Assembly: GCA_963664825.1 (NCBI GenBank)
Contig: OY761614.1
Span: 2,944,001-3,008,000, forward strand
Source of the DNA: an uncultured Holophaga sp.
GTDB lineage: Bacteria > Acidobacteriota > Holophagae > Holophagales > Holophagaceae
Reading direction: 5' to 3'
DNA: 64,000 nt
The position numbers and the translations under genes are program-made. The notes below the pieces were generated by a model that was not told the DNA's origin, searched no databases, and saw only the letters and a list, made by a program, of their open reading frames with translations. Each line of letters opens with the position of its first letter. Position 1 is the stretch's first letter. Shown piece after piece: positions 18,559-48,580 of the stretch.

Positions 18559-18635
18559 GGCTGGGTAGCTCAGTTGGTTAGAGCGAAGGTCTCATAATCC
18601 TTAGGTCGGCGGTTCGAATCCGCCTCCAGCCACCA
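18559..18635 (+). tRNA. tRNA-Met(CAT), elongator type likely
   Basis: Cloverleaf with GGCTGGG/TCCAGCC acceptor stem, D arm, CTCATAA anticodon loop, GGTTCGAATCC T arm and encoded CCA. Ile2 not fully excluded. Confidence 0.93.
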
Positions 18636-18637
18636 GT
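18591..18637 (+). repeat. attL core
   Basis: CTCATAATCCTTAGGTCGGCGGTTCGAATCCGCCTCCAGCCACCAGT, identical to 43561-43607. Confidence 0.93.
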
Positions 18638-25972: not shown

Positions 25973-25976
25973 GAAC

Positions 25977-27044
25977 TCACGCCTTCTTTCTGAAGACGAA
26001 TTCCGCCTTGCTTGCCATCAGATTGAACTTCGACACATACCGCTCCATAGAAAACTGCATGGCGCCATTCCCTCTTGCTTTTGGGTTCCCGCGTCGAGCA
26101 ATGTCCGGGTCGCAAAGTTGGGTGATGGTTTCCAGGATCTCGTCGCGAAATTCGGGATCAATGGCGGGCCGTAGTCGTTCTATCACTGTGCCGAATGATT
26201 TTTTTATTACAGGCAAAACTTCCATATAGGTCCCAGTCCAGTCGCCGCTCCATGTTCTGGGCCGATGTGAAACGGGAGTTACATTCATTAATTCTGGGGT
26301 CATCGCCGTGCCGGCGAAGAAGTAGACAACCATGCTCCCGAGAAGGTATAGATCGCAGCCATGCCGACGCACGTACCAATTGTCGCTGATGTGATTGAAC
26401 AGCAATTCTGGGGGTGCGTAGCGCAAATCACCTTGAACGGGATGAATCTCATGAGGCGGTTTTTTCCCCTGGGCTGCTGCGCGCCCCATGTCCGTGATCT
26501 TAGAAACGTTGTCGTTGAACACGAGCACGTTGGAAGGTTTCAAGTCCTGGTGTGCAATCGCCTGTTTGTGTAATTGCCACAAGCCGGTAGCGATGTGATG
26601 GAGGGCCCGAAGTCTGAGTGCGATGTCAAATCTCCGGGAGAAATCAATTTGAGATCTGACATCTCCATCTGCCAATTCAAAGATTAGATAGGGGACAGCG
26701 CCTGCATCACCTGCATCCGCGATTCGTGTCGTTCCATCCGCAATTGCTGTGGCTATCTTGTCGAGGCGACGATCCCGGCATAGATTCAATATGTCTCTTT
26801 CAAAATTGTACCCTTCGGTGAGGGCTTGGATTGCACGGGCGGGATCGGCGGACCCTAGGGCGGAGGAAATATCGAGAGCTTTCAGGAATGCCTTCCGGCC
26901 CTTCTCGTCCTCGACAAAATACCCCACGGAAAAAGATCCGCCTGTAGAACTGGGGCCCCTGGAATGCCTTTCGATGACCTTCCATCCACCATCAAGGGTC
27001 AACCCAATCAATCTCTCAGCAGGCTTCAGGGCAGGAGTGGGCAT
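25977..27044 (-). CDS. Soluble Hanks-type Ser/Thr protein kinase
   Basis: GGSFSVGY, AFLKAL, HQDLKPSNVLV, DMG, YAPPE and DLYLLG motifs; GAGG RBS before ATG 27044 (ORF open to 27125). Confidence 0.88.
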   Translation of the reverse strand: MPTPALKPAERLIGLTLDGGWKVIERHSRGPSSTGGSFSVGYFVEDEKGRKAFLKALDISSALGSADPARAIQALTEGYNFERDILNLCRDRRLDKIATAIADGTTRIADAGDAGAVPYLIFELADGDVRSQIDFSRRFDIALRLRALHHIATGLWQLHKQAIAHQDLKPSNVLVFNDNVSKITDMGRAAAQGKKPPHEIHPVQGDLRYAPPELLFNHISDNWYVRRHGCDLYLLGSMVVYFFAGTAMTPELMNVTPVSHRPRTWSGDWTGTYMEVLPVIKKSFGTVIERLRPAIDPEFRDEILETITQLCDPDIARRGNPKARGNGAMQFSMERYVSKFNLMASKAEFVFRKKA

Positions 27045-27133
27045 TTGGTTCCTCGGAAGTAATCTATTCGCTAAGCTTGGTGAATGGTATCTATTTTCAG
27101 CAAAAGGGACGTCATTCCGGCTCACTCGGCCAA

Positions 27134-27439
27134 TTAAACCCGGGGATAGGCGAACTTCAGGCCCAGCATCTCCGCATAATCCTTGGCCTGCTGGAGGTCG
27201 TCCGAGGCGGCCTTGTACTCGGCCTTCGCTTCCACTATTGCGATGGGGAAGTCGCGCCGGAAGCGAAGCAAGTAGTCCACCCGCTTTGGAGGGCGACGGA
27301 TGAATCCTTTGCCGACAGAAACGATCCGACCATCCGTGATGGACCTCTGTTCCGCGATGGAATGAGGTTCGGCGTCCCAGCCCGCCACCTGAAGCAGGGG
27401 GACGACAAACTTCCTACAGGTGTCGGCTTCAGTGGGCAT
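27134..27439 (-). pseudogene. hsdR: N-terminal fragment of a type I restriction R subunit
   Basis: TEADTC...P.L..AGW, VDYLL, IVEAK, LQQAKDYAEMLGLKFAY, then an abrupt stop. Confidence 0.8.
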
Positions 27440-32443: not shown

Positions 32444-35400
32444 GTGTTTCGACGATGCTCACTGAGCCTAGCCGTACTATTTCTTTCTGCGTTCCTGCCC
32501 CTATTTGGGGCGGTGACCATCAGCGTTAGTCCCACCACGGCCACTGTGAACCAAGGTGCAACCAAGACCTTCGCGGCTACCGTTGCAGGTTCGACCAATA
32601 CGGCCGTGACCTGGAGTGTGACCACCACAACCGGTGGCGCGGTGAGCGATTCCGGGGTCTACACGGCCCCGATGACGGCGGGCACCTACAAGGTTCGGGC
32701 GACCAGCCAGGCAGATGCCTTGAAATATGCCGAGGCTACGGTGACCGTCCCTGTGGTCAAGGTCACCGTGAGCCCAACTATTGCCACCGTGGCACAAGGT
32801 GGCGCCCAGTCTTTTTCAGCAGCTGTTACCGGGTCGGTTGATACCACGGTTGCCTGGAGTGTGGTCACCGCCGGTGGCGGAACGGTAAGCGAAACAGGGG
32901 TCTACACCGCTCCACTGACCCCTGGCACTTACAAAGTAAGGGCAACCAGCCAGGCAGATGCGACAAAATTTGTCGAAGCCAAGGTCACGGTGCCCGCGAT
33001 CGAGATCTCAATAAGCCCCACCACTGCCACGGTGGATCAACTTGGCATTCAAGCTTTCACCGCCACCACAACAGGGGCGGCGAATACAAACGTCACCTGG
33101 ATTGTGACTTCGGCAGACGGGGGAACAGTGAACCCAACCGGGACTTATACGGCCCCCATGAAAGCTGGCACGTACAAAGTTCGAGCGACCAGTGCGGCGA
33201 ACACTGGAAAGTTTGTCGAAGCTACCGTGACCGTTTCCGAAATTGTGATCGCAGTGAGTCCTATCACAGCCTCCGTAATCCAGGGTGCCACCAGGGCATT
33301 CAAGGCCACCGTAACGGGCATCACGGGAACGGCGAACAAGGCGGTGAGCTGGAGCGCTTCCATCGGAACCATTGACGCGAGCGGAAACTACACAGCCCCA
33401 ACTTCGGCTGGTTCTTGCACTATCACAGCCACTAGCAGCGCTGATGCGACTAAGACAGGAACCGCCACCGTCACCGTTCCGGCGGTCACCATTTCCGCGA
33501 GCCCCACGACCCTGACGCTTGCGCCTGGCGCCACACAAACGTACACGGCCACGGTGGGTGGCACGAGCAACAAGGATGTGACCTGGGCGGCTAGCGGCGG
33601 CAGCATTTCCACGACCGGTATTTTTACGGCGCCTGCCACGCCAGGCCTGTACACCATTACGGCCACCAGCGGCGCCAACACAGCCAAGATTGCCACGGTG
33701 AAAGCAGTCGTGACCGTGGATGGCAATATCGATGTCTCCGGAACGTTCACGAGTCCCCAGGGCAGTCCCATCTTTTATCAATCCGGAACCTCCGTCAGCG
33801 GGTCCTGGGATCGCACTAACGACATGGGATACGTAGCCAACCTCACGGGCACGTTGACCGGCAAGGTGTTTTCCGGCTCCTGGGTCTCCGTGGATGGAAC
33901 TGTGAGTGGGAAGTTCACGCTCACCTTCGGGGCTGACGGTGGGTCTTATACAGGAACCTACGGCAACGCTGAATCAGATGCCGATGGCGGTGCATGGACC
34001 GGTACGCGGAAAAACGGCGTGGTCAGCGTGAAACTCATTCCAGCCTCTGCCGTTTTGAAGCCGGGGGTGACTCAGGCCTTCCAGGCTCTGGTAGCGGGAG
34101 CCTTCGTCAAGACCGTCACCTGGACCACGACTTCTGGCGTCATCGGCCAGGACGGCGTATTCGTCGCGCCTGCCATTCCCGGCCTCTGCACCATCAAGGC
34201 CACCAGCGCCGCGAAAACCACCTCGAGTGCCTCCGCACCGGTCGTGGTGACCATGGACGGCCTTCTGGATATCAGTGGCACCTTCACCAGTCCTCAGGGT
34301 AATCCGACAATCTTTCAGAACGGGTCTGCGATTCAGGGAACCTGGGATAGCACCAGCTATATGGGATATGTCGAAAATTTCTCCGGCACCCTAAACGGCA
34401 ATATCCTTTCCGGTAATTGGAGTTCTCCGGATGGGGCTCAGGGCGGGAAGTTTACGCTGACCTTTGCTGCAGACGGGGGCTCTTACTCGGGAACCTACGG
34501 AAATGGTGATTCCGACTCCGATGGAGGAACGTGGACCGGCACGCGTCAGAGCGGCGTGGTTAGCGTGAAACTCATCCCAGCCTCTGCCGTTTTGAAGCCG
34601 GGGACGACTCAGGCCTTCCAGGCCCTGGTCGCGGGAGCCTTCGTCAAGACCGTTGCCTGGACCACGACCTCTGGGGTCATCGGCCAGGACGGCGTATTTG
34701 TCGCGCCTGCCATTCCCGGCCTTTGCACCATCAAGGCCACCAGCACCGTAAAAACCACCGCCAGTGCCTCTGCACCGGTCGTGGTGACCATGGACGGCCT
34801 TCTGGACATCAGTGGCACCTTCACCAGTCCCCAGGGCAATCCGACAATCTTCCAGAACGGGTCTGCGATTCAGGGAACCTGGGATAGCACCAGCTATTTG
34901 GGTTATGTCGAAAATTTCTCCGGCACCCTAAACGGCAATATTCTTTCCGGTAATTGGAATTCTCCGGATGGGGCTCAGGGCGGGAAGTTTACGCTGACCT
35001 TTGCTGCAGACGGGGGCTCTTACTCGGGAACCTACGGGAATGGTGACTCCGACTCCGATGGAGGAGCGTGGACTGGCACACGGAAAAGCGGCGTGGTTAG
35101 CGTGAAACTCATTCCAGCTTCCGCCGTTTTGAAGCCGGGGACGACTCAGGCCTTCCAGGCTCTGGTTGCGGGAGCCTTCGTCAAGACCGTCACCTGGACC
35201 ACGACTTCTGGGGTCATCGGCCAGGATGGCGTATTCGTCGCGCCTGCCGTTCCCGGCCTTTGCACCATCAAGGCCACCAGCACCGTGAAAACCACCGCCA
35301 GTGCCTCCGCACCGGTCGTGGTGACCATGGACGGCCTTCTGGATATCAGTGGCACCTTCACCAGTCCTCAGGGCAATCCGACTATCTTTCAGAACGGGTC

Positions 35401-38400
35401 TGCGATTCAGGGAACCTGGGATCGCACTAGCGACATGGGATACGTAGCCAACCTCACGGGCACGTTGACCGGCAAGGTGCTCTCCGGCTCCTGGGTCTCC
35501 GAGGATGGCACTGTGAGTGGGAAGTTCACGCTCACCTTCGGGGCTGACGGGGGCTCTTACTCGGGAACCTACGGAAATGGTGATTCCGACTCCGATGGAG
35601 GAGCGTGGACCGGCACGCGCCAGAGCGGTGTGGTGAATGTGCGGGTCCTTCCGGACTCCTCCATTCTTCAACCCGGAGGGACTCAGGCATTCCTGGCATT
35701 GGTCGCGGGTAGCTATGTGAAGGACGTCACCTGGAATGCCACTAGCGGAACCATTACACCGCAAGGCATGTACACCGCCCCATCCACCCTGGGGGTCTGT
35801 ACCCTGAAAGCCACAAGCACCGTGGCCACCACCAAGAGTGCTTCTGTCCCGGTGATCATCAGCGCGGATGGTCAGATCGATATCTCGGGCACCTTCACCT
35901 GCCCTCAAGGGAATGCGCTCCTCTATCAATCGGGCAACCAGATCCAAGGGGATTGGGACACCACCGCTTTGTATGGCCTGGCTTCCCGCCTCACTGGAAC
36001 ACTGAATGGCCGCACGTTCACCGGATCCTGGTCCACACCGGACAATGCTTATTCAGGGCAGTTCCTGCTGGTCTTTGGTGCAGATGGTTCATCTTTCACG
36101 GGTTCCTACGGCAATGGTGTTTCGAATTCCGACTCCGGTGAGTGGGCAGGGTCTCGCCAGCCGGGTGTCGTCACCCTGAAGGTTCTTCCTGCCGGTGCTG
36201 TCCTCGCGCCGGGTGCAACCATGCAGTTCCAGGGATTGGTGGCAGGGAGCTATCTGAAGACCGTGAATTGGGAGGCCAAGGGTGGAGGATCCATCGCCGC
36301 GGACGGTACCTATACGGCCCCAACGGCACCAGGGTTCTATTCCATCGAGGCCACACCAACTGCGGATACCACCCAGAAAGTGAGCGTCTCCATCGAAGTG
36401 ACGGCCGATGGGAAGCAGGATGTATCCGGATCCTTCACCACCCCCTTCGGGGATTTGGTGCTGTTTCAATCCGGGACCGCCATCATGGGAACCTGGACGA
36501 ACAGCCAGGTTGGCGGCGCATGCCAAGTGAATGGCACCCTTCAGAATGGCCTCGTAACCGGGACCTGGGTCCTGGGCACGGATGCGAACCAGAATGGTGG
36601 ATTCGCCTTCACCTTCAATCCTGATGGATCTACCTTTAGCGGATCCTTTGGCATGGGTGCTTCGTCTACCGACTATCTATTGACCGGCACGCGCCAGAAT
36701 GGTGTGGTCCTGATCAAGCTCGACCCCAAGTCCGCCATCCTGGCGCCTGGGGGCACCCAGACCCTCACGGCGCTTGTGGCAGGCACACCCGACAAGTCGA
36801 TCACTTGGTCCACCACGAACGGAACCCTGAGCGGCAGTGGTTCCTCAGTGCAATTCACGGCGCCCGCTCAGGAAGACACCGTCACCGTTACGGCCGTGAG
36901 TCCCCAGTTCGCGGGCGTTTCAGCCCAGAGCACGCTGGTCGTGACCCAGGGCATCTCCGTTGTCATCAACCCCAAGGCGGCGCTCATGGCGCTCGGTGCG
37001 AAGAAACAATTCACGGCAACCGTGAGTGGCGTCGCGAACCAGGCCGTGGCTTGGAATGCCACCCTGGGAACCATCGATGGGGCGGGCCTGTACACGGCTC
37101 CATCCGCGCCCGGAACCGACACGATTACGGGCACGAGCCAAGTTGATTCCAGCAAATTCGATCGTTCCACGGTGGTCGTGATCGCGCTTCCCGCCATCAC
37201 AAGCTTCACGGCGACCCCGGCTCTCATCACGCTGGGCAGCGGGAGCATTTTGAGTTGGACGGTGACAGGCGCAACGAGCATCACCCTCGATCACGAGATC
37301 GGAGACGTTTCCGCCCTCACCACCAAGAACGTTTCACCAACCCAGAACACGACGTACACGCTCACGGCCACGAATGCTGCGGGGAGTGTGACGCGGCCCG
37401 TAAACATTCAAGTGGTCGCCCCCAAGGCCACCCTGTCGATCAATCCCAGCGCCATTACCTTGGGGCCTGGCTGCAGCACCACCTTCGCCGCCACGCTCTA
37501 CATGCAGGGAACCAGCGATCGCACTCTGCTATGGACCGCGACCGGGGGCAACCTTATGCCGAACGGTGCCACGGCTTACTACACCGCACCTACGACGCCG
37601 GGTACCTACTTGGTGCAGGTCCGGGCCGCCGCAGATCCCCGGCTTCAGGATGCAGCCACCGCCACGGTGACGGTGGTCGCGGGCGGCGGGGGTATTCCTC
37701 CCGGTGGTGGAGGTCCTGGCTCCTCCACCACCGTTTCGGTGAGCCTCTATCCCAAGACTCTCAAGTTGAATGCCGGGCAGAAATTCACTTTCGAGGCAAC
37801 GGTGGTTGGCTCCAGCAATACGGCCGTGGATTGGCGCCTAGCCAGCACCAAGGGCGAAGCGACGCTGAGCCAGACCGGAGAATTCGAGGCTCTGCGGCCC
37901 GGAACCTACGAGCTGCTCGCCATCAGCCAGGGGGATTCTTCAGCCCAGGATGGTGCCACGGTCACCGTGGAGAGCACAGCCAAGGACACCGGTCTGACTC
38001 TGGGGTCGGGGAGCAGTGCCATCGCCCTGCCTGATGGACGGATTTTTGTAAGCGGGGGGTACCAACCCGAGGCCACCGCGAGCCTTTACGACCCCGAAAC
38101 GGGTGATTCCCAGCCCCTGGGATCCACTCTACAAAAAAGGGTGTGGCCCGGTTTGACCCTCATGGATGACGGTCGTGTGCTTTTGATGGGGGGTGCCAGA
38201 AATCTGCAGTGGGATGACAGCTCTAAGACATGTAAAGACGACGTAGTAGCGGAGTTTTTCGACCCCCTGACCCAAAAATTCGAGGCCCAAGTGGTTTCAT
38301 GGCCGGGATGGACAAATTGCGGCATCTCTAGCGCCTACTGCGACTACAACAACAACAACAACAACTACTACTACAACAACAACTACTACTACTACTACTA

Positions 38401-40930
38401 CTACTACGGCGGCGGCTACTATATGGGTATGGATAATATATTAGGCCCCAATCTGATTCCTCAGGTAAACGACCCCCAGGCATCAGGATACACTGGCTAC
38501 TATGGATACTATGGATACTATGGCTACTATGGCTACTATGGCTACTATGGCTACAATGACTACAATGGCTACAATGGCTACTATGGCTACTATGGCTACA
38601 ATGGCTACAATCCACCTGATGTCTCCCCCGATGCACTCCGTGCCTGCTCGGCCTCCAATGCCATGGACCAGCCTCTTCTCAACAAGGTTTCCTTTACGTA
38701 CGTGAAGAATGAGGATAACAATGGTTTTTATTACGGGGATAACTGGTATCTCTATCCCTGCCGAAGCATCCGCAATGCTGATAATCAGATAACAAATTAC
38801 TACCATTACGTCCCCCAATCGGCTTTCCATCTCAAGGGAGGGGAAATCTTGTTCAGGGGCGGCCTCTACCGCTATTCCACGCAGGTCCTTCGCGACGATC
38901 CAAATAACCCTGGATGGTGGCGGATCGCGCAGGGCGCTCCCGAGAACCCGGCCTCTCGGATTTCTTCCTGGGCCTACAATCCCGCCACCCATAGCTGGCG
39001 AACCCTGGGGAAGACTCTGGAGGATCGCAACCAGCCTTCCTTCGCGGATCTGCCTGACGGAAAGGTGCTCGTTTCGGGAGGCATTGAGACCGATTACCCC
39101 AACCCCACCAATGATGAGGGGGCGACACAGCGCATTGAACCCCGCGCGGAGGTCCTGGATCTCGCCACGGGGGCCTGGTCCTATACCGGAGCCATGATCC
39201 AACCCCGCTATGGCCACGCCAGCCTCTCCCTGCCGGATGGCAAGGTGCTCATCGTTGGAGGACACTACTACGCTGCCCCCGGCAGTACGGATACGCGATA
39301 CGCCGATCTGGTGGAACTCTACGATCCGGAAACCGGGACCTTCCAGGCGGTGGAAAAGCTCATCTATGGCCTGAATTACCCCAAGCTGATTCTCAATAAG
39401 GATGGGCGTGTCTTCCTGCTGGGAGATCGGATTCCCCTGGGTCCCGATCCCCTGGATCAAACCACGTCTAACCTAGCGCGAGGTAAGGCCGGTCTGGCAT
39501 TTGCCTCAGGAGCGGGTGATCCCGTGAGCGGACCGGCGCTGGTGGAGATTGATTTGCACCAACCTGTGCTTGCCGTGGACTTTGTCACGATTAACCAAGG
39601 TGTTGAACGACATCTGTATGACACGGCGCAATCCTCTCAGGACACGCGCTTGACCTTCCGGAAAGATGTTCCCAAGATTGCAGGGCGCCCGATGAGGATT
39701 GGCGCACATGTAAGTGGCTGGAAATTCGATGCCAAGGGGAAGCGCATTCCCCTTAATGCTGTGACAGTCAGGGCATGGCTAGATAACAACTCGGATGATC
39801 CAATGGCTCCTGGTTCACTTCCATGGCAGGTGCCAGTGCTGGCGAGCCACACTAAGGTGCCACCTCTTACACCAAACCGTTTCGGCGAAACGGATTCGAA
39901 TAAGGTCTACTACTTCGACATTGATTCGAGCAATCTTGACAAATTGACTAACAATGCAAAACTGAGGCTCTATCTATCTCCAGCTCTCGGTGATTTGGTT
40001 CCCAAAGGTAACGTTCTTAATTCGTACGAAGAGTCCCAACCCATGGGGCTCGCCTACACACCTAAAATGGACGTGCACTTGGTTCCCATTGCATACACCT
40101 ACGGGACTGGTGAAAACAGCTGCACTTCGACGATGTCGAATACTGATCTCGCAGCTTTTGCAACTCGCATCGGATTACTTAACTCAATCAAGGCCATGTA
40201 CCCCGTCTCCCATGTAGATGCGACTGGTCAACCCCTGGTGAGCGTCCAGGTGAATCCATTTGGGATTTCGGCAACATGGAATGAGGAGTCGGCAAGCGCC
40301 GCGAGCAATGGCGCGAGACGGGGTGCGCTCTACGATGCAAATCAGACAACACGGGAGAGTAATGGCAATGTAATGCGTGTGGAGCTTCAGGAACCACCCG
40401 ATCCAGCGGATCCCGCCATGTCCATGCCCAGGCCGCAATACGCAAGCACCATGGTGCAAGGCCGAAGCAACAATACCTATGTGATCGGCGTCGTTCAGAG
40501 CATTCAGGGGCATACCTTCCCGGGCACAGGGGGTGCCACTTACATTGCAGGCCTCGGCTCACGGGGGTTCCATTGGGCCTGGACCATGGCAGATCTCGAC
40601 GAGAATGGCCAAGTTGTGGCCGATAATCACGCGGCCATTACAGTCCTTCACGAGTTGGGGCATGCGAACGGTGCGGCCCATGCGCCCATTGGGGCCTCGG
40701 ATAATTTTGATCCCATCTGGGCGAGCTTGCTGAACGGGATTTATGGAAATGCGGGCATCGGAGTCCCGGGGTTTTCGTTTTATCCCTTGCCGTGGCGAAC
40801 CTTACCCGTCCTGACCACCGACAAGGATATGATGTCGTACGCGCCGGATGGAACGCGCTGGATCTCAGACTACAATTTTAGTGTGATTTTCAAACAGCAA
40901 GATAACAACGATATTTACGTCAAAGAGTGA
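32444..40930 (+). CDS. Giant secreted protein: Ig-like repeats, repeated beta-barrel modules, Kelch propeller, C-terminal Zn metallopeptidase
   Basis: Signal peptide; V.WS....G....G.YTAP Ig repeats; LPDGRIFVSGG / LPDGKVLIVGG Kelch blades; HELGHANGAAH and Met-turn DMMSY. Confidence 0.88.
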   Translation: MFRRCSLSLAVLFLSAFLPLFGAVTISVSPTTATVNQGATKTFAATVAGSTNTAVTWSVTTTTGGAVSDSGVYTAPMTAGTYKVRATSQADALKYAEATVTVPVVKVTVSPTIATVAQGGAQSFSAAVTGSVDTTVAWSVVTAGGGTVSETGVYTAPLTPGTYKVRATSQADATKFVEAKVTVPAIEISISPTTATVDQLGIQAFTATTTGAANTNVTWIVTSADGGTVNPTGTYTAPMKAGTYKVRATSAANTGKFVEATVTVSEIVIAVSPITASVIQGATRAFKATVTGITGTANKAVSWSASIGTIDASGNYTAPTSAGSCTITATSSADATKTGTATVTVPAVTISASPTTLTLAPGATQTYTATVGGTSNKDVTWAASGGSISTTGIFTAPATPGLYTITATSGANTAKIATVKAVVTVDGNIDVSGTFTSPQGSPIFYQSGTSVSGSWDRTNDMGYVANLTGTLTGKVFSGSWVSVDGTVSGKFTLTFGADGGSYTGTYGNAESDADGGAWTGTRKNGVVSVKLIPASAVLKPGVTQAFQALVAGAFVKTVTWTTTSGVIGQDGVFVAPAIPGLCTIKATSAAKTTSSASAPVVVTMDGLLDISGTFTSPQGNPTIFQNGSAIQGTWDSTSYMGYVENFSGTLNGNILSGNWSSPDGAQGGKFTLTFAADGGSYSGTYGNGDSDSDGGTWTGTRQSGVVSVKLIPASAVLKPGTTQAFQALVAGAFVKTVAWTTTSGVIGQDGVFVAPAIPGLCTIKATSTVKTTASASAPVVVTMDGLLDISGTFTSPQGNPTIFQNGSAIQGTWDSTSYLGYVENFSGTLNGNILSGNWNSPDGAQGGKFTLTFAADGGSYSGTYGNGDSDSDGGAWTGTRKSGVVSVKLIPASAVLKPGTTQAFQALVAGAFVKTVTWTTTSGVIGQDGVFVAPAVPGLCTIKATSTVKTTASASAPVVVTMDGLLDISGTFTSPQGNPTIFQNGSAIQGTWDRTSDMGYVANLTGTLTGKVLSGSWVSEDGTVSGKFTLTFGADGGSYSGTYGNGDSDSDGGAWTGTRQSGVVNVRVLPDSSILQPGGTQAFLALVAGSYVKDVTWNATSGTITPQGMYTAPSTLGVCTLKATSTVATTKSASVPVIISADGQIDISGTFTCPQGNALLYQSGNQIQGDWDTTALYGLASRLTGTLNGRTFTGSWSTPDNAYSGQFLLVFGADGSSFTGSYGNGVSNSDSGEWAGSRQPGVVTLKVLPAGAVLAPGATMQFQGLVAGSYLKTVNWEAKGGGSIAADGTYTAPTAPGFYSIEATPTADTTQKVSVSIEVTADGKQDVSGSFTTPFGDLVLFQSGTAIMGTWTNSQVGGACQVNGTLQNGLVTGTWVLGTDANQNGGFAFTFNPDGSTFSGSFGMGASSTDYLLTGTRQNGVVLIKLDPKSAILAPGGTQTLTALVAGTPDKSITWSTTNGTLSGSGSSVQFTAPAQEDTVTVTAVSPQFAGVSAQSTLVVTQGISVVINPKAALMALGAKKQFTATVSGVANQAVAWNATLGTIDGAGLYTAPSAPGTDTITGTSQVDSSKFDRSTVVVIALPAITSFTATPALITLGSGSILSWTVTGATSITLDHEIGDVSALTTKNVSPTQNTTYTLTATNAAGSVTRPVNIQVVAPKATLSINPSAITLGPGCSTTFAATLYMQGTSDRTLLWTATGGNLMPNGATAYYTAPTTPGTYLVQVRAAADPRLQDAATATVTVVAGGGGIPPGGGGPGSSTTVSVSLYPKTLKLNAGQKFTFEATVVGSSNTAVDWRLASTKGEATLSQTGEFEALRPGTYELLAISQGDSSAQDGATVTVESTAKDTGLTLGSGSSAIALPDGRIFVSGGYQPEATASLYDPETGDSQPLGSTLQKRVWPGLTLMDDGRVLLMGGARNLQWDDSSKTCKDDVVAEFFDPLTQKFEAQVVSWPGWTNCGISSAYCDYNNNNNNYYYNNNYYYYYYYYGGGYYMGMDNILGPNLIPQVNDPQASGYTGYYGYYGYYGYYGYYGYYGYNDYNGYNGYYGYYGYNGYNPPDVSPDALRACSASNAMDQPLLNKVSFTYVKNEDNNGFYYGDNWYLYPCRSIRNADNQITNYYHYVPQSAFHLKGGEILFRGGLYRYSTQVLRDDPNNPGWWRIAQGAPENPASRISSWAYNPATHSWRTLGKTLEDRNQPSFADLPDGKVLVSGGIETDYPNPTNDEGATQRIEPRAEVLDLATGAWSYTGAMIQPRYGHASLSLPDGKVLIVGGHYYAAPGSTDTRYADLVELYDPETGTFQAVEKLIYGLNYPKLILNKDGRVFLLGDRIPLGPDPLDQTTSNLARGKAGLAFASGAGDPVSGPALVEIDLHQPVLAVDFVTINQGVERHLYDTAQSSQDTRLTFRKDVPKIAGRPMRIGAHVSGWKFDAKGKRIPLNAVTVRAWLDNNSDDPMAPGSLPWQVPVLASHTKVPPLTPNRFGETDSNKVYYFDIDSSNLDKLTNNAKLRLYLSPALGDLVPKGNVLNSYEESQPMGLAYTPKMDVHLVPIAYTYGTGENSCTSTMSNTDLAAFATRIGLLNSIKAMYPVSHVDATGQPLVSVQVNPFGISATWNEESASAASNGARRGALYDANQTTRESNGNVMRVELQEPPDPADPAMSMPRPQYASTMVQGRSNNTYVIGVVQSIQGHTFPGTGGATYIAGLGSRGFHWAWTMADLDENGQVVADNHAAITVLHELGHANGAAHAPIGASDNFDPIWASLLNGIYGNAGIGVPGFSFYPLPWRTLPVLTTDKDMMSYAPDGTRWISDYNFSVIFKQQDNNDIYVKE
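34022..35632 (+). repeat. 537-bp intragenic tandem repeat (three near-identical units, divergent ones flanking)
   Basis: GT(C/T)AGCGTGAAACTCAT... at 34022, 34559 and 35096. Confidence 0.9.
38342..38422 (+). repeat. In-frame trinucleotide microsatellite (AAC/TAC/GGC)
   Basis: GAC TAC (AAC)6 (TAC)3 (AAC)3 (TAC)8 (GGC)3 TAC TAT. Confidence 0.95.
38495..38611 (+). repeat. 13 x 9-bp in-frame tandem repeat (GYY/GYN)
   Basis: GG(C/A)TAC(T/A)AT units, one GAC variant. Confidence 0.95.
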
Positions 40931-40934
40931 CGCC

Positions 40935-41624
40935 ATGATGGAGTGCACCGTGAGAGCTCGATATTTTGTTTCTTGTCTGAATTCACTTCTCCTCTCATGT
41001 TCCGTATTGTCTGCCCAGTCATTTGCTGTTCCACAAAAAAAATCGATTAGTGCATACATTGGATTCGAGATTTACCGATTTAGTAATGGTAAATTTCGTT
41101 TCGGTGCTGCGATAAACCATGGCAGATTTTCAACAGAGCAATACACGGAGGATGCCAAATTAAAGCATGAATACTATTATGAGTATACGACACTTTCGGG
41201 GGGGGTGTTGTATGGATCTGTTGATTGTCTTGATGACGTCGTTCGAAAGTGTTTCCGGGGTTCAATACCGACCACAGAAAGCGGGTCTGAATTTCGGATT
41301 TACCGAAATGGAAGCCTTTTTTATAGCTTCCAATCTACTGAGGATCCCATGCAGGTGATATGGAAGGAGATCGAACCGGGTCGGTTTCATTTTAAGTTCG
41401 ACCCACAGGATGAATTTTATCCAGAGGTCGTATGGAACGAGGGGAAGAGCGGATGTCGGGGGAGTGAGCATCTTCAACAGGACGGCACCTTTGTTGTCGA
41501 ACCTGGTCACCTGAAAGAGTCCGGTGTCCTGGTTATCGGTGTCGCCAAGCGGGGGCTTCGCTTCAAGCGCATCTTCATCCGGCCCGGAATCGGGGAGGTC
41601 CCCAAGCCTGATTGGGTGGATTAA
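40935..41624 (+). CDS. Hypothetical, probably secreted protein
   Basis: 4-nt gap after the giant gene; signal-peptide-like N-terminus. Confidence 0.65.
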   Translation: MMECTVRARYFVSCLNSLLLSCSVLSAQSFAVPQKKSISAYIGFEIYRFSNGKFRFGAAINHGRFSTEQYTEDAKLKHEYYYEYTTLSGGVLYGSVDCLDDVVRKCFRGSIPTTESGSEFRIYRNGSLFYSFQSTEDPMQVIWKEIEPGRFHFKFDPQDEFYPEVVWNEGKSGCRGSEHLQQDGTFVVEPGHLKESGVLVIGVAKRGLRFKRIFIRPGIGEVPKPDWVD

Positions 41625-42110: not shown

Positions 42111-43388
42111 CTAACGGCGAGCTCCCTTCGGAAGACCCAAGAGGTCTCCAGCGATTTGAGCTCCGATTTCCTCAGAGGCATTGGCCTTGGGATCCTCTGC
42201 AAGGTGTGCATAGCGCTGCGTCACAGAAGGCTGGCTATGCCCAAGAAGAGAGCCAACGATGGGAAGACTCAGCCCCTGAGAGACCCCCACGCTGGCGAAG
42301 GTATGACGGAGGTCGTGAATGCGAACATCCTCAATATTCACCATATCTTCAGTTCGTTTCTTTTTCTTCGCGACCTTTGCTGCTTCCAGCCTTGAAACAC
42401 TTTCGCGGACACGTTCCCACACCTTTTGAAGACCCACGAAGTGGGCTCCTGTCTTGTTCCCCTGGATCACAAAGGGGTTCCCGAGTGTTTGAGGGATTTT
42501 CCTGAGGATATCCACGGCTGGCGCGTTAAGCGGAATGACCTTGGAGCCTGTCTTCCTACCTGTCTTATGTTGATCAGCACTGAAGGTGATGACCTTTCTC
42601 TGCAGGTCAATCTGTGACCAGCGAAGTTCGATGATCTCGCTGTGCCTCGCGCCGGTGAGGATCAGTAATCGGATGGCGGCAAGGGCTGGTGGCGGAATGG
42701 TCTTTTCTGTTTCCGCCTCCAGAAGTGCCTCACCGAGAACTTGAAGCTCCTCCGGCCTCAGGAATCGCTCTCGTTTGCTCTCCGGATTCTTCTCAATGTG
42801 AATGCATGGGTTGCTTGAGAGCGCCCGGTATTTCCAGATCTCCGCGCAGTTGAACATTTTTCGAAGAATGGCCACAGCCTGATTCGCTTGACGTGGTGTC
42901 CCACGAAGATCGTGATGGAACTTTGCGATCTCCGCTGTCGAGACGTCCTTCACCAGGAGGTTGCCGAGCTTGGGCTCAATGACCTGGCGAAGATAGCGGA
43001 TATACCCCCTCGTCGTGCTCGCTTTCGTCTTGGGCTGAACATGCTCCTCGATGAATCTATCGATGAGCTCCTTGAGCATCGGAGCTGTGCGCTGAGATCG
43101 AATGTCGATGGTTGGATCGATACCCCTTGCGACCTCGCCCCTCCGAGAGTGTGCGAGTTTTCGCCCTTCCTCCAGGGTCAGGTCACCAAATCGCCCCAAG
43201 GTAATCCACCGCTGCTGACGGTTGATGGTGAATTTCAAGACGAAGGATTTCTGGCCAGAGGTCATTATGCGAACTCCAAATCCCGGCATTTCCTGATCCC
43301 AGATTGTGTAGACCTGGTCCCTTGCCCGAAGGCTATCAATCAGCCGTTTGGTCAACTTGGTCCGGTTCGAAATCTTTGCGTCTTCCAT
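42111..43388 (-). CDS. Tyrosine integrase with N-terminal arm-binding domain
   Basis: WD..MPGFGVR...G.KSF; catalytic TGARHSE, HDLRH, LLGH and TQRYAH; GAGGGA RBS (ORF open to 43421). Confidence 0.95.
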   Translation of the reverse strand: MEDAKISNRTKLTKRLIDSLRARDQVYTIWDQEMPGFGVRIMTSGQKSFVLKFTINRQQRWITLGRFGDLTLEEGRKLAHSRRGEVARGIDPTIDIRSQRTAPMLKELIDRFIEEHVQPKTKASTTRGYIRYLRQVIEPKLGNLLVKDVSTAEIAKFHHDLRGTPRQANQAVAILRKMFNCAEIWKYRALSSNPCIHIEKNPESKRERFLRPEELQVLGEALLEAETEKTIPPPALAAIRLLILTGARHSEIIELRWSQIDLQRKVITFSADQHKTGRKTGSKVIPLNAPAVDILRKIPQTLGNPFVIQGNKTGAHFVGLQKVWERVRESVSRLEAAKVAKKKKRTEDMVNIEDVRIHDLRHTFASVGVSQGLSLPIVGSLLGHSQPSVTQRYAHLAEDPKANASEEIGAQIAGDLLGLPKGARR

Positions 43389-43408
43389 TTCCCATCCCTC
43401 GGTCGACG

Positions 43409-43440
43409 ATGCTACAGCCATGCTACAGCCATGCTACAGC
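43409..43440. promoter_or_regulatory. Putative integrase arm-type sites (3 x 11 bp)
   Basis: ATGCTACAGCC ATGCTACAGCC ATGCTACAGC; TGCTACA also twice at 11-bp spacing at 18684-18701. Confidence 0.7.
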
Positions 43441-43560: not shown

Positions 43561-43607
43561 CTCATAATCCTTAGGTCGGCGGTTCGAATCCGCCTCCAGC
43601 CACCAGT
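43561..43607 (+). repeat. attR core (displaced tRNA 3' half)
   Basis: Identical to 18591-18637; followed by hairpin AAAGCCCCGA...TCGGGGCTTT. Confidence 0.93.
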
Positions 43608-45336: not shown

Positions 45337-48303
45337 TCAGAACTGCACGGAGAAACCTGCTGTGACGGAGCGCCCACTCTGCTTGGTGTAGACCAGGCCG
45401 AAGTTCGGATCCGCCTTGATATCAGACTGGTAGTTGCCTGTGTACTGGTTCAGGTAATAGCCCAGCACCGTCCTCTGGTTGAAGACATTGTTGATGGAGA
45501 TGTTGGGCTTGATGGAGCACGCCTTGTATTTGAGCGTGGCGCTCAGGTCCAGGTTCACCTGCAGCAGGGAGGGTGTGTAGCCCATGTTGCAGCGCTGGTT
45601 ATCCGTGGTGACCATGTCGGTCGCGAGGCCGCCAAAGGCTGTGCTGGCGGCATTGGCTTGCCACTTGGCACCCGCGGTCATGACCTTGGTGAGACCGATG
45701 CCGGACTGCCAGTTGGCCGTGAGTCCCAGGTTGAAATCCTGGCTCAGGATGCCGAAGCGGTACCCGCCCCGGGCCTTGAATTCGTGCACGGGGTTTCCCT
45801 CGTAGTTCCCGCCGGAGATTCCTTGCGCGTAGTCGTAGTCGGCGGTCCTTCCGCCTGCACCGAAGCCTTGCTGTTGGCCGGATTGCGCATATACAAGGTA
45901 GTTCTGGCTCTCCCCCAGGTAGTTGCCGTAGTGATGAGTCCAGGTGTAGTCCAGGGAGAGGTAGTGCCGCTCCCCATGGTTGGTCGCATGCAGGTTCAAA
46001 CCGATGTACCGGTCCTTGGGCGTGGGGAAGTTGCTGTTCCAGGTGTGCTGGACGCCGTTCGAATCCACGAAGGTCACGGGTCCAGGGCCGGGGTTCCAGA
46101 TGACCTTGGTGCCCTTCAGGCCGCTGAAGGCCGCGGATCCATCCCCGTTGAGGAAGTAGCTGTCCTCCATTACATCCTTCAGCTCCCAGAAGGTCCAGAG
46201 GCCGCCAATGGTCCAATTGTTCCGGAGGGTCCAGTCCGTCCCCAGGGTCCAGGTGTTCTTCCGGGGCAGCCGGAGGTCCGTAGCGTGGGGTTGGGGCTTA
46301 CCCTCGCCACCCGTGAGCATCATGGAGACGTCCGGAGTGTTCTTGAGGAGTGTGAAGGCCTTGCCCCCCGCATAGGTGGAATTGTAGGTCCAGCTGCCCG
46401 GGAACCACATGTCGTAGTAGAGCCCGCTGGTCTTGGCCCAGGTGATCCCCGCCATGGGCATGGCCATGAAGAAGCGGCCGAAGTGGGCGAACACCTTCTT
46501 CCTGCCATCCTGGTCCACGTCCCAGACCAGGCCAATGCGCGGCTGGAGCTGCTTGCGCAGGCTGTCGTACTCAGCTAGCTTCATGCCGTCATAGGGGCCA
46601 AAGGCGCCCTTGTAGCAGAAGGGGTCATAGCGGAGGCCAACGTCCATGCGGAGCCCCGGCAGGAGCTCGACCACATCCTTCAGGTAATGAGACTCAAGCA
46701 CGCCTGTATATTTGGAGTAATTGGCGCTCCAGTTCAATCGACGCAGGATACCGGAAGGGTCCAGGACGCTATTGTTGATGGAGTAGATTTCATTGGATCC
46801 TTCGGTTTGTTCCCACTTAGTATCTTGCCGCAAGTATCCAAACTTGATCTGATGGTTGCCAAGGCACCAAGTCAAGTCCATTCGATACTGGGTATTGGGG
46901 TTATCTCGGTGGGCGTACAGTGCAGTTCCGTTTCCTGTCTGATAACTAACATAGGCAGGGTTGCTGGGCTTGTTGGAAACGGCACTCCCTGGACCATCCA
47001 TAAAATACCTGGAGTCATAAACCGAAATCGAACGGGTCGCCCCGTCGAAAGGGGTGCTGGTGGAAGGGGTTTTGAAGTTACCCAGGCTCGCAACAACGAA
47101 GAGATTGGACGTCGGCATCCAATTCCAGGTCAGATTGACGGATTGACTGGCGCTTTCCCGGGATAAGCCCTGGTTCAGTGTGCCGTAGTCGCTGTATTGA
47201 TTGCCTGTATTTATCTTAAAATCGCTACGTGTGCCGCTCAGGATCAATTGATTGGTACTGTTGATGAACCAGTTCAACTTGGCTGTCCATTGGTTCGGAC
47301 CCGTTGCATGTTCGCTATCGGATTTCAGGCCATTCCAGTTCAGGCCCCCATTAAGGAGAGTCGTGGGCGGAGTCACATTCTTGAACCCCTGGTACCCCAG
47401 GAAGAAGAAGAGCTTGTCCTTCAGAATGGGACCACTGGCGGACGCGCCATAGCGGTGGTACTGGTTGCCATCCACGGGCTTCTTTTGGGGAGGAGTCGTG
47501 TTCGGGTTATAGAACGCCATCGCCTGGGAGTGGGGGAAGTTAGTGCCATAAAACAGGCTGCCTTCGTATTTGTTGGTGCCGCTCTTGGTCAGGGCATTCA
47601 CCACGCCACCGAAAACGCCGTATTCGGCGCCGAAGGCGTTGGTGACCACCTCCACCGATTCGATGAACTCCCGGGCCGGCTGGGTGGACGCCAGCTCGGA
47701 ACCCGCGCTTGAACCGTTTGTGGAAGTCTTGTTCGTCACCGTGCCATCCACGGTGAACAGGTTCTGGTCGTCCGTTCCGCCCATGATGTTGAAGGCGCCC
47801 GTATAGGCCGTCTGAACGCCTGGCACCGAGGCCATGAGGCCATCCAACGCATTCAGGCTCGTCATGTCCATGGGGATCTGGGCCAGTCGCTCCGCGCTGA
47901 GGTTGGTCGCAACTTGGGTGGTCGTTGTGTCCATGTTACCGGCTTCCCCCACCACTTCCAGGACCACCTGTTCCACGGGGAGCATGGAGAAATTGGCGAC
48001 CCTGGTGTCGTGGATCTCGACGCGCGTCTTCACGGTTCCGGTTTGGAAACCATCCTTGATGACCGTCAGTGTCCACTCACCTACATTGAGGAGGGGAAGC
48101 CGATATTCGCCCTTGCTGTTGGAAACGGCGTAGCGTTCCGTTTGGCCGGACTTGACCCGAAGCCTGGCCCCATCAATGGGCTTCCCGAATTTGTCCCGAA
48201 CCGTGCCCGTGATCGAACCCGTCTGCACGGACTGAGCATGCGCCGGGAGGCCCGCAACCAGGAGGATACCGATGGCGGAGAGGGTGGAAAGCTTGGTATG
48301 CAT
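45337..48303 (-). CDS. TonB-dependent receptor-like outer membrane protein (Oar type)
   Basis: Signal peptide; TGSITGTV.D; AEYG..GGVVN..TKSGTN; GPILKDKLFFF; QPRIG..WD; C-terminal Phe. Confidence 0.9.
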   Translation of the reverse strand: MHTKLSTLSAIGILLVAGLPAHAQSVQTGSITGTVRDKFGKPIDGARLRVKSGQTERYAVSNSKGEYRLPLLNVGEWTLTVIKDGFQTGTVKTRVEIHDTRVANFSMLPVEQVVLEVVGEAGNMDTTTTQVATNLSAERLAQIPMDMTSLNALDGLMASVPGVQTAYTGAFNIMGGTDDQNLFTVDGTVTNKTSTNGSSAGSELASTQPAREFIESVEVVTNAFGAEYGVFGGVVNALTKSGTNKYEGSLFYGTNFPHSQAMAFYNPNTTPPQKKPVDGNQYHRYGASASGPILKDKLFFFLGYQGFKNVTPPTTLLNGGLNWNGLKSDSEHATGPNQWTAKLNWFINSTNQLILSGTRSDFKINTGNQYSDYGTLNQGLSRESASQSVNLTWNWMPTSNLFVVASLGNFKTPSTSTPFDGATRSISVYDSRYFMDGPGSAVSNKPSNPAYVSYQTGNGTALYAHRDNPNTQYRMDLTWCLGNHQIKFGYLRQDTKWEQTEGSNEIYSINNSVLDPSGILRRLNWSANYSKYTGVLESHYLKDVVELLPGLRMDVGLRYDPFCYKGAFGPYDGMKLAEYDSLRKQLQPRIGLVWDVDQDGRKKVFAHFGRFFMAMPMAGITWAKTSGLYYDMWFPGSWTYNSTYAGGKAFTLLKNTPDVSMMLTGGEGKPQPHATDLRLPRKNTWTLGTDWTLRNNWTIGGLWTFWELKDVMEDSYFLNGDGSAAFSGLKGTKVIWNPGPGPVTFVDSNGVQHTWNSNFPTPKDRYIGLNLHATNHGERHYLSLDYTWTHHYGNYLGESQNYLVYAQSGQQQGFGAGGRTADYDYAQGISGGNYEGNPVHEFKARGGYRFGILSQDFNLGLTANWQSGIGLTKVMTAGAKWQANAASTAFGGLATDMVTTDNQRCNMGYTPSLLQVNLDLSATLKYKACSIKPNISINNVFNQRTVLGYYLNQYTGNYQSDIKADPNFGLVYTKQSGRSVTAGFSVQF

Positions 48304-48580
48304 CAATGTCTCCTGTGGTCGCATGGGTGCGTAGCGCCTAGCGGTGGTGGGGACCCCGCGCGTGAAGCGTGGGGAGGGGGGATCGGCTTCACCTTGGACT
48401 CGTCCATCTTCGTCACGCTCTCGTCATGCCGGGTACCCCGGTTGAAATATTTGCGGGTACTCCGCCCTGGGGATCCGGGAACCCTTCGCCCGCCCCCTCC
48501 CTCCTCAAGGGGGGCGGCACCCCCCAAGGGTGGAGCCTTGGGGGGTGTGCTACGTTGGTCCAGGCTTGTCCTCGGATCCC

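What the first reader, a model, noticed from the sequence alone, without database searches (positions are those of the whole stretch)
38342..38422. Poly-Asn/poly-Tyr trinucleotide tract in a Kelch loop
Seen: DY-N6-Y3-N3-Y8-G3-YY encoded by pure AAC/TAC/GGC runs, frame preserved, within a Cys-bracketed insertion of roughly 180 aa between propeller blades. This is very unusual for a GC-rich bacterial gene. Inference: a slippage-driven hypervariable, paratope-like or amyloid/adhesive loop. Every codon is reachable from AAY by adenine substitution as in DGRs, but no RT or template is in this window.
Basis: partly seen in the sequence, partly recalled or inferred. Interest (0 to 1): 0.75.

Follow-up and report, generated by a model that had tools for sequence, protein, structure and literature searches.

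The report
Tyr/Asn slippage tracts replace propeller blade
Two real and very rare runs of tyrosine, asparagine and glycine codons, likely made by DNA-copying slippage and not by a retroelement, fill the place of one propeller blade in a giant, predicted secreted bacterial protein whose relatives swap their end domains the way polymorphic toxins do; the runs likely form a floppy surface loop, and its function is untested.

Summary
The tract is real: GAC TAC (AAC)6 (TAC)3 (AAC)3 (TAC)8 (GGC)3 TAC TAT, in frame in a 2828-aa gene. Neither pattern occurs in any of 156 other genomes of the class. A DGR is rejected: no reverse transcriptase, Avd or template, and the wrong mutation spectrum. Contigs from two studies give the same tract length, so it is not an artefact, and hypervariability is not shown. 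The segment is not simply inserted between blades. It occupies the slot of blade 3 of a seven-blade, galactose-oxidase-type Kelch propeller, 78-136 aa in 24 relatives against 193 here. The larger find is the host family. These Holophagaceae proteins have an Ig stalk, a shared Kelch module, then one of 9 C-terminal domain types in 25 proteins, swapped between near-identical carriers. In 12 of 12 loci a small partner gene follows directly, and in 11 of them its type tracks the C-terminus. That is a polymorphic toxin-immunity layout. Best reading: slippage in a tolerant variable loop; a selected Tyr/Asn binding patch is the main rival.

The parts
38342..38422 (+). Tract 1: compound trinucleotide microsatellite GAC TAC (AAC)6 (TAC)3 (AAC)3 (TAC)8 (GGC)3 TAC TAT, aa 1967-1993
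38486..38611 (+). Tract 2: 14 nine-base units coding G-Y-Y / G-Y-N (one D-Y-N, one G-Y-T), aa 2015-2056; its commonest unit equals the last nine bases of tract 1
38288..38812 (+). Blade-3 slot of the Kelch propeller (aa 1949-2123): both tracts, four Cys, no recognisable Kelch blade in any of six frames; predicted disordered (pLDDT under 50 over most of it)
38690..38812 (+). Non-repeat N/Y-rich stretch with four strand-and-turn-like pieces; possible non-canonical substitute blade (inference from reading the sequence, not resolved by the model)
38009..38287 (+). Kelch blades 1-2
38813..39421 (+). Kelch blades 4-7 (numbered as in relatives)
32444..40930 (+). Giant gene, 2828 aa: signal-peptide-like N-terminus, Ig (Big_2/I-set) stalk, Kelch module, C-terminal metzincin-type peptidase
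33804..35714 (+). Four 537-base repeats in the stalk (77-82% identical to the reference copy over 300 nt)
39479..40927 (+). C-terminal region with HELGHANGAAH (aa 2736, window 40649) and a D-M-M turn; the family's swappable end domain
40935..41624 (+). 229-aa partner gene 4 bases downstream, signal-peptide-like; homologous to the partners of relatives with the same peptidase type; candidate immunity or inhibitor gene (inferred)
42111..43421 (-). Tyrosine integrase of the host island
18591..18637 (+). Left 47-base direct repeat, 3' part of a tRNA(CAT) gene: left end of a 25-kb integrated element
43561..43607 (+). Right 47-base direct repeat: right end of the element

Best explanation
The tract and its neighbour array are in-frame microsatellites, likely expanded by replication slippage, that occupy the blade-3 slot of a Kelch propeller in a giant, predicted secreted protein with a polymorphic toxin-immunity-type layout, where they likely form a tolerated, disordered surface loop. 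Shown: the sequence, its rarity, the absence of DGR parts, the slot mapping, the C-terminal swapping in the family and the co-varying partner genes. Inferred: an already N/Y-rich loop seeded a G/D-Y-N/Y unit; single A/T changes turned AAC into TAC and TAT into AAT; slippage then amplified 3-base and 9-base units, which never shift the frame. The other six blades fold, and the gap is either closed or filled by the non-repeat stretch at aa 2083-2123. The slot is the family's most length-variable part, so the expansion is probably carried at little cost, and length change would tune the loop rather than switch the gene off. Untested: secretion, toxicity, immunity and any binding role.
For: Codon purity P about 9e-8 and block structure, 3 of 200000 shuffles. 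Unit lengths are 3 and 9 and the frame is open. Tract 1 begins and ends with unit types of tract 2. The slot is 78-136 aa (sd 14.7) in 24 distinct relatives, the widest range of the six intervals measured, and 193 aa here. No relative has a tract: N+Y 5-12% against 35%; at most 9 N+Y in 27 aa in 11 whole proteins. AlphaFold gives a confident Ig domain and six blades, with residues 186-346 of 580 under pLDDT 50. The model of relative L027 has seven blades and matches galactose oxidase at Z 32.0, rmsd 2.7 over 328 residues. Majority contigs are the same length in two studies. Swapping: P0149 is 93% identical to L027 and L023 in the Kelch module, has no C-terminal match to them and 41% to L028. 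11 of 11 relatives have a partner gene within 22 bases, in two homology groups that match the C-terminal groups. [quoted passage not shown]
Against: The non-repeat part of the slot is itself enriched in N+Y (22 of 115 against 6.8%, P 2e-5; against relatives' slots P 1e-4) and in Cys (4 of 115, P 0.003), while the other AT-rich-codon residues F, I and K are not enriched. That fits selection on composition better than pure tolerance. Two expansions within 150 bases, at the only such locus among 157 genomes, is a lot for drift. No close relative or second allele was found, so slippage was never seen in action and the order of events is not fixed; this protein is the most divergent member throughout. 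Low pLDDT may only reflect that the slot has no aligned homologues. No orphan toxin-immunity cassettes were found in the genome or in 12 relatives' loci.
Confidence: 0.55

Rival explanations
1. Selected sticky patch. Slippage supplied the sequence, but selection keeps a Tyr/Asn/Gly-rich, possibly disulfide-closed loop on the propeller's binding face as an adhesive or target-recognition surface, much like a Tyr-rich antibody loop or a cohesive low-complexity domain.
For: N+Y and Cys are enriched in the non-repeat residues, F/I/K are not. Both arrays code only Y/N/G/D/T in the used frame, whereas the other + frames give T/M/A or Q/L/W. The tract starts about 20 residues after the last strand of blade 2, the loop that faces ligands in Kelch propellers (recalled). 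The module lies just before the swappable C-terminus, where adhesion domains were suggested to enhance target contact (PMC3482391 section 42).
Against: No relative shares the composition, 0 of 24. Pure codons point to recent origin rather than long conservation. N+Q is only 17 in 80 aa. No length variation was seen.
Confidence: 0.3
2. Decaying propeller. Blade 3 was destroyed, the module no longer works, and the slot accumulates repeats as freed sequence while the stalk and peptidase keep the frame open.
For: No blade-3 remnant in any frame. The module is only 27-32% identical to relatives, which are 36-51% identical to L027 apart from one near-twin at 91%. The gene sits on a mobile island next to an IS4 element.
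Against: Six blades keep their motifs and model well. Blades 6-7 keep 43-52% identity. The Ig domain before the propeller is diverged to a similar degree (33% against 44%), so the loss of identity is not confined to the propeller. There are no stops or frameshifts in 8.5 kb.
Confidence: 0.1
3. Variable region of a diversity-generating retroelement acting in trans or since lost.
For: Every codon of tract 1 can be reached from AAY by adenine changes, and most unit variants of tract 2 involve an A.
Against: No PF00078 or TIGR04416 match and no bAvd in the single-contig genome, 96.55% complete. The best template candidate has 21 or more non-A mismatches per 80 bases in 10 of 10 windows tested. Second-position A is kept in 24 of 27 codons, and no C appears at position 1. 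Simulated A-mutagenesis gives 8-11 residue types against 4 seen (4 or fewer in 170 and in 0 of 100000 runs).
Confidence: 0.02
4. Sequencing or assembly artefact.
For: It is a low-complexity tract seen in one genome only, and the laying tool skipped the 92 letters over tract 1, so they were not compared base by base. The best runs may include the source sample.
Against: An 8018-base contig in each of two studies spans the tract with the same 92-base gap and no difference elsewhere; a third sample covers tract 2 identically. Three runs hold a share of 1.00 of the 360 sampled words. No 31-mer is repeated in the region. The frame stays open.
Confidence: 0.03

Closest known systems
In-frame simple sequence repeats and low-complexity regions in bacterial surface proteins (contingency-locus-type SSRs; PMC8004648, PMC2651432, PMC9990875, passages read)
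   Same: A pure tandem repeat in a predicted exported protein; units in multiples of three change length without frameshift.
   Different: Compound N/Y/G tract of 27 codons plus a 14-unit array, much longer than the coding trinucleotide SSRs of at most four units in H. influenzae. It sits inside a folded propeller, not in a stalk. Variation is not shown.
Sec/T2SS-exported stalked polymorphic toxin systems (Zhang et al. 2012, PMC3482391)
   Same: Signal peptide, repeat stalk of about 2000-4800 aa, swapped C-terminal enzyme-like domains including an HExxH metallopeptidase, and an adjacent cognate partner gene.
   Different: The stalk is Ig repeats plus Kelch propellers rather than RHS or haemagglutinin repeats. 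No processing peptidase was seen by Pfam and no orphan cassettes in the stretches examined. Toxicity and immunity are untested. Four literature searches found no description of this family.
Galactose oxidase / AA5 seven-blade Kelch propeller (PDB 9g43, 1gof)
   Same: Best structural match for a relative's module (Z 32.0, rmsd 2.7, 328 aligned) and for this protein's (Z 22.5, rmsd 3.2, 305 aligned).
   Different: Only six canonical blades here. It is embedded in a stalked protein, and the copper-radical site was not tested.
Diversity-generating retroelements (Bordetella BPP-1 type)
   Same: AAY-derivable codons in a predicted surface protein.
   Different: No RT, Avd or template; blocks of identical codons instead of scattered adenine substitutions.
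Metzincin peptidases (reprolysin-like PF13582, M66 PF10462)
   Same: HExxHxxGxxH and a conserved D-x-M turn across 17 sequences; weak Pfam and PDB matches.
   Different: Scores fall under the Pfam cut-offs (22.3 against 22.4 bits; 12.1 against 20.6), so no family can be assigned. The substrate is unknown.

Membership tests
Diversity-generating retroelement target | Reverse transcriptase in the genome | tested here: not met
   0 matches for PF00078 and TIGR04416; controls rang in 3 of 14 genomes each; genome is one contig, 96.55% complete
Diversity-generating retroelement target | Accessory Avd gene | tested here: not met
   0 matches for PF22296; the control rang in 1 of 14, under the cut-off, so this test is weak
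Diversity-generating retroelement target | Template repeat differing only at adenines | tested here: not met
   best candidate has 21 or more non-A mismatches per 80 bases in 10 of 10 windows; blastn found only chance hits
Diversity-generating retroelement target | Scattered substitution of both adenines of AAY codons | tested here: not met
   position 2 stays A in 24 of 27 codons; 4 residue types against a simulated mean of 8-11, assuming equal G/T/C
SSR contingency locus | Pure tandem repeat well above chance | tested here: met
SSR contingency locus | Length variation among cells or strains | tested here: inconclusive
   same length in the 2 contigs that span tract 1; contigs drop rare variants; no second strain found
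SSR contingency locus | On/off switching by frameshift | tested here: not met
   units of 3 and 9 bases cannot shift the frame
Polymorphic toxin system (Sec/T2SS, stalked) | N-terminal export signal | tested here: met
   hydrophobic N-terminal stretch by a crude hydropathy scan, not a dedicated predictor; 3 secretin genes in the genome
Polymorphic toxin system (Sec/T2SS, stalked) | Long repetitive stalk | tested here: met
   Ig repeats and four 537-base repeats
Polymorphic toxin system (Sec/T2SS, stalked) | Unrelated C-terminal domains on a shared carrier | tested here: met
   9 groups among 25 C-termini (six are singletons and some may be partial); swaps at 93% and 71% carrier identity
Polymorphic toxin system (Sec/T2SS, stalked) | Adjacent cognate gene that co-varies with the C-terminus | tested here: met
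   12 of 12 loci counting this one; 6 peptidase-type share one partner group (L024 only by alignment), 5 HxH-type share another, Sel1 hits under the cut-off in 3 of those 5; L031 has its own
Polymorphic toxin system (Sec/T2SS, stalked) | Orphan toxin-immunity cassettes | tested here: inconclusive
   none in the own genome or in 12 loci, but only 1-4 kb downstream was held
Polymorphic toxin system (Sec/T2SS, stalked) | C-terminus is toxic and the partner neutralises it | not testable with these tools
   needs a bench test
Galactose-oxidase-type Kelch propeller | Seven four-stranded Kelch blades | tested here: inconclusive
   met in the model of relative L027; six confident blades here, the seventh slot unresolved
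AA5 copper-radical oxidase | Tyr-Cys cofactor and copper ligands | not tested
   only a weak GlxA hit, 37 bits against a cut-off of 800
Q/N-rich prion domain | 30 or more N+Q in 80 residues (criterion recalled) | tested here: not met
   maximum 17; PLAAC was not run
Metzincin peptidase | HExxHxxGxxH zinc motif and Met-turn | tested here: met
   H, E, H, H and M invariant in 17 of 17 aligned sequences, G nearly so

The most novel reading that the evidence does not exclude
An undescribed family of stalked Ig-Kelch polymorphic toxins in Holophagaceae uses its seven-blade propeller as the target-recognition module. In this member, replication slippage alone has rebuilt one blade slot into a disulfide-anchored, antibody-like Tyr/Asn/Gly loop whose length tunes target specificity, with no retroelement involved.
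Probability: 0.15. Interest if true: 0.8.

Novelty: new variant of a known kind. Interest (0 to 1): 0.5.

Why it matters
The tract alone is a rare, clean example of microsatellites overwriting a blade of a folded propeller while the gene stays open, which makes propeller plasticity and the birth of low-complexity loops directly testable. The host family matters more. It shows C-terminal swapping and matched partner genes in Holophagaceae (Acidobacteriota), on an Ig-Kelch carrier that my searches did not find described, with several end domains of no known family. If the loop proves to bind targets, it would be a route to specificity change without a reverse transcriptase.

Tried and rejected
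DGR: rejected. Frameshifted remnant of blade 3: none in six frames; profile comparison with aa 2071-2140 matched only blade 4. Close homologues of the slot: none for aa 2056-2205 among 148 candidates, limited to proteins of 1555-4949 aa; the Atlas gave only generic Kelch clusters under its recognition mark; the word search was flooded by generic Kelch proteins (7998 candidates scored, 120 of 214 listed). Exact 33-base tract pattern in metagenomes: 47 loci, 0 related to this protein by tblastn, almost all AT-richer repeats. The idea that the partner gene is the split-off tail of stand-alone peptidases: profile probability 0.9%, not supported. Complex prediction of peptidase with partner: no answer, score 0.00, no evidence either way. 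No RNA holder listed. HxH-type C-termini matched nothing in Pfam, NCBIfam or PDB sequences; the likeness of their H-x6-D and HxH motif to LAS-type peptidoglycan peptidases is recalled only. The tree has this protein on a long branch with forced-aligned repeat columns, so I draw no order of events from it. One literature search on in-frame trinucleotide slippage returned 0 papers; one on Kelch blade loss returned 3 unrelated ones.

Full report
Observation. The tract is as described: window 38342-38422 is GAC TAC (AAC)6 (TAC)3 (AAC)3 (TAC)8 (GGC)3 TAC TAT, residues 1967-1993 of an open 2828-aa frame at 32444-40930. It is the only run of five or more AAC/TAC units in the 3.47-Mb genome and holds 23 N+Y in 27 residues, against at most 12 elsewhere. 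Patterns for each array match 1 of 157 genomes of the class, this one; many of those genomes are incomplete, but the count is also 1 of 94 among near-complete ones.

Is it real? Five runs from two studies hold the region, three with a share of 1.00 of the 360 sampled words. I laid 4 of the 6 listed runs. In X1 and X2 one 8018-base contig spans the tract: the tool skipped 92 letters of repeat, the contig's own coordinates skip the same 92, and there is no difference in the rest, tract 2 included. X5 covers tract 2 with no difference; X4 is fragmented there. So an artefact is unlikely and majority length is constant. These are contigs, may be one strain and may include the source sample, so rare variants are invisible.

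Origin. With the gene's own codon use (AAC 43%, TAC 65%, GGC 35%) the purity of tract 1 has P about 9e-8, and 18 identical neighbouring codons were matched by 3 of 200000 shuffles. Tract 1 starts with GAC TAC AAC and ends with GGC TAC TAT, both unit types of tract 2, so the arrays probably share a seed (inference). This is what slippage leaves. A DGR needs an RT and a template repeat from which adenines are randomised (start of abstracts of PMC3240598 and PMC12875486 in the listing). The genome has no PF00078, TIGR04416 or bAvd match and no template: the best candidate has 21 or more non-A mismatches per 80 bases in 10 of 10 windows. The second A is kept in 24 of 27 codons, and simulated mutagenesis gives 8-11 residue types against 4.

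Where it sits. The protein has a signal-peptide-like start, Ig repeats, Kelch repeats and a weak reprolysin-like end. An alignment-based search found the Ig-Kelch module in 12 of 132 other genomes of the family, 0 of 8 of the genus and 0 of 24 of the other two families. The one named locus of 80 that matches the whole module is titled Holophagaceae, and earlier notes on this genome say the same. All 11 relatives first aligned have seven blades; this protein has six, with the Y/N/G segment in place of blade 3. From the 150 listed hits of the profile search I took the 19 that matched the full module, dropped 6 whose slot duplicates a genome row, and left out the other 131. Across the 24 distinct relatives the interval from the end of blade 2 to blade 4 is 78-136 aa, the most variable of six intervals, against 193 here. 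Their N+Y content is 5-12% against 35%, and blade 3 is recognisable by eye in all, though degenerate in a few. Three more partial or divergent loci also keep it. No remnant of blade 3 appears in any frame here. AlphaFold models six confident blades and leaves residues 186-346 of 580 under pLDDT 50. Relative L027 models as seven blades and matches galactose oxidase (Z 32.0, rmsd 2.7, 328 aligned). This protein's model also fits galactose oxidase better (Z 22.5, rmsd 3.2) than six-bladed Keap1 (Z about 19, rmsd 4.3-4.6), although Foldseek's E-value order put six-bladed Kelch domains first. Whether the ring closes with six blades or the stretch at aa 2083-2123 serves as a non-canonical blade is therefore open; in the second case the true insertion is about 130 aa, closed by Cys1966 and Cys2068.

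Tolerated or selected? For tolerance: pure codons, no relative with a tract, and the family's most variable slot. [quoted passage not shown] For selection: the 115 non-repeat residues of the slot hold 22 N+Y (19% against 6.8% in the rest of the protein, P 2e-5; 7.5% in relatives' slots, P 1e-4) and 4 Cys (P 0.003), while F, I and K, also AT-rich codons, are not enriched. These tests were chosen after seeing the data, and old decayed repeats would give the same bias. The classical Q/N prion threshold (recalled) is not reached. I put tolerance at 0.55 and selection at 0.3.

The host family. Every one of 11 relatives is followed within 22 bases by a 211-320-aa gene with a hydrophobic N-terminus, as this gene is. 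Partners fall into two homology groups that match the two main C-terminal types: six with a metzincin motif (L024 joined only by alignment) and five with an H-x6-D/HxH motif, three of these with weak Sel1 hits; L031 differs in both. Among 25 C-termini there are 9 groups. Swapping is direct: P0149 is 93% identical to L027 and L023 in the Kelch module but shares its C-terminus with L028 (41%) and not with them; L026 and L031 are 71% identical in the module with unrelated ends; L023 and L027 are 91% identical in the module and 23% in the end. This is the layout of stalked, Sec-exported polymorphic toxins (PMC3482391: abstract, section 42 and 12 passages read). Against membership: no orphan cassettes were seen, no processing peptidase was found, and nothing shows toxicity; the proteins could be surface enzymes with dedicated inhibitors or chaperones. 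Passages of PMC6838775 list Sel1 proteins beside T6SS effector genes; their role as immunity proteins is recalled. Searches for Holophagaceae with kelch, Geothrix with Ig-like or M66, and polymorphic toxin with kelch, Sel1 or Holophag found no description of this family, but the library lacks most subscription papers, and I read no supplements; those of PMC3482391 could list members.

Context. The gene lies in a 25-kb element between 47-base repeats at a tRNA(CAT) gene (18591-18637, 43561-43607), with an integrase, a coupling protein, a weak relaxase hit, RadC, a PDC-M71 candidate defence pair and an IS4 transposase. Horizontal transfer would explain the patchy spread (inference).

Verdict. 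A real, rare compound microsatellite, most likely made by slippage, not a DGR target and not shown to vary. It overwrites blade 3 of a Kelch propeller in a member of an apparently undescribed polymorphic-toxin-like family. New variant of a known kind; interest 0.5, of which the family is the larger part.

Noticed in passing
L021-L031 and P0075, P0077, P0132, P0135, P0137, P0144, P0149, P0181, P0190, P0201, P0210, P0212, P0219: Family of giant Ig-Kelch proteins with 9 C-terminal domain groups and matched downstream partner genes. The HxH-type end and six singleton ends deserve their own study; the HxH type matched no Pfam, NCBIfam or PDB sequence family.
   Followed up: partly
window 24464-27125 (-): Kinase plus TPR gene pair matching PADLOC candidates PDC-M71A (E 2e-114) and PDC-M71B (E 2e-124), next to a type I restriction gene fragment at 27134-27439.
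   Followed up: partly
window 18591-43607; a third copy of the repeat at window-equivalent 73964-74005 (G000:C1 3017964-3018005): Integrated 25-kb element at a tRNA(CAT) gene with relaxase-like (weak), coupling-protein, RadC, replication-like and integrase genes; a second island of about 30 kb appears to follow in tandem.
   Followed up: partly
window 33804-35714: Four 537-base (179-aa) stalk repeats, each an Ig domain plus a beta-rich domain with no Pfam match; by eye it recalls an avidin-like barrel (recalled, untested). Similar segments appear in L023 and L173.
   Followed up: no
window 38516-38547, runs X1 and X4: A 54-base minor contig (depth 2.9 against 18.2 in X1; a contig with the same loose end at 48.7 in X4) resembles tract 2 but has a different, probably 24-base, period and is absent from the genome. 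It may be another organism's repeat or a minor allele; unexplained.
   Followed up: partly
L173 (G026:C8): A family member whose Kelch module is split over separate frames, ahead of an HxH-type end; looks frameshifted.
   Followed up: no
P0137 C-terminus: Peptidase-type end with EELGH in place of HELGH, so possibly inactive or using a different ligand.
   Followed up: no
L175, L176, L179, L180, L182-L184: Stand-alone metzincin-type genes in the family with a conserved ~180-aa C-terminal tail of no tested family; not shown to be related to the partner genes.
   Followed up: partly
window 45337-48324 (-): TonB-dependent-receptor-like gene with a carboxypeptidase regulatory domain just outside the island.
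   Followed up: no
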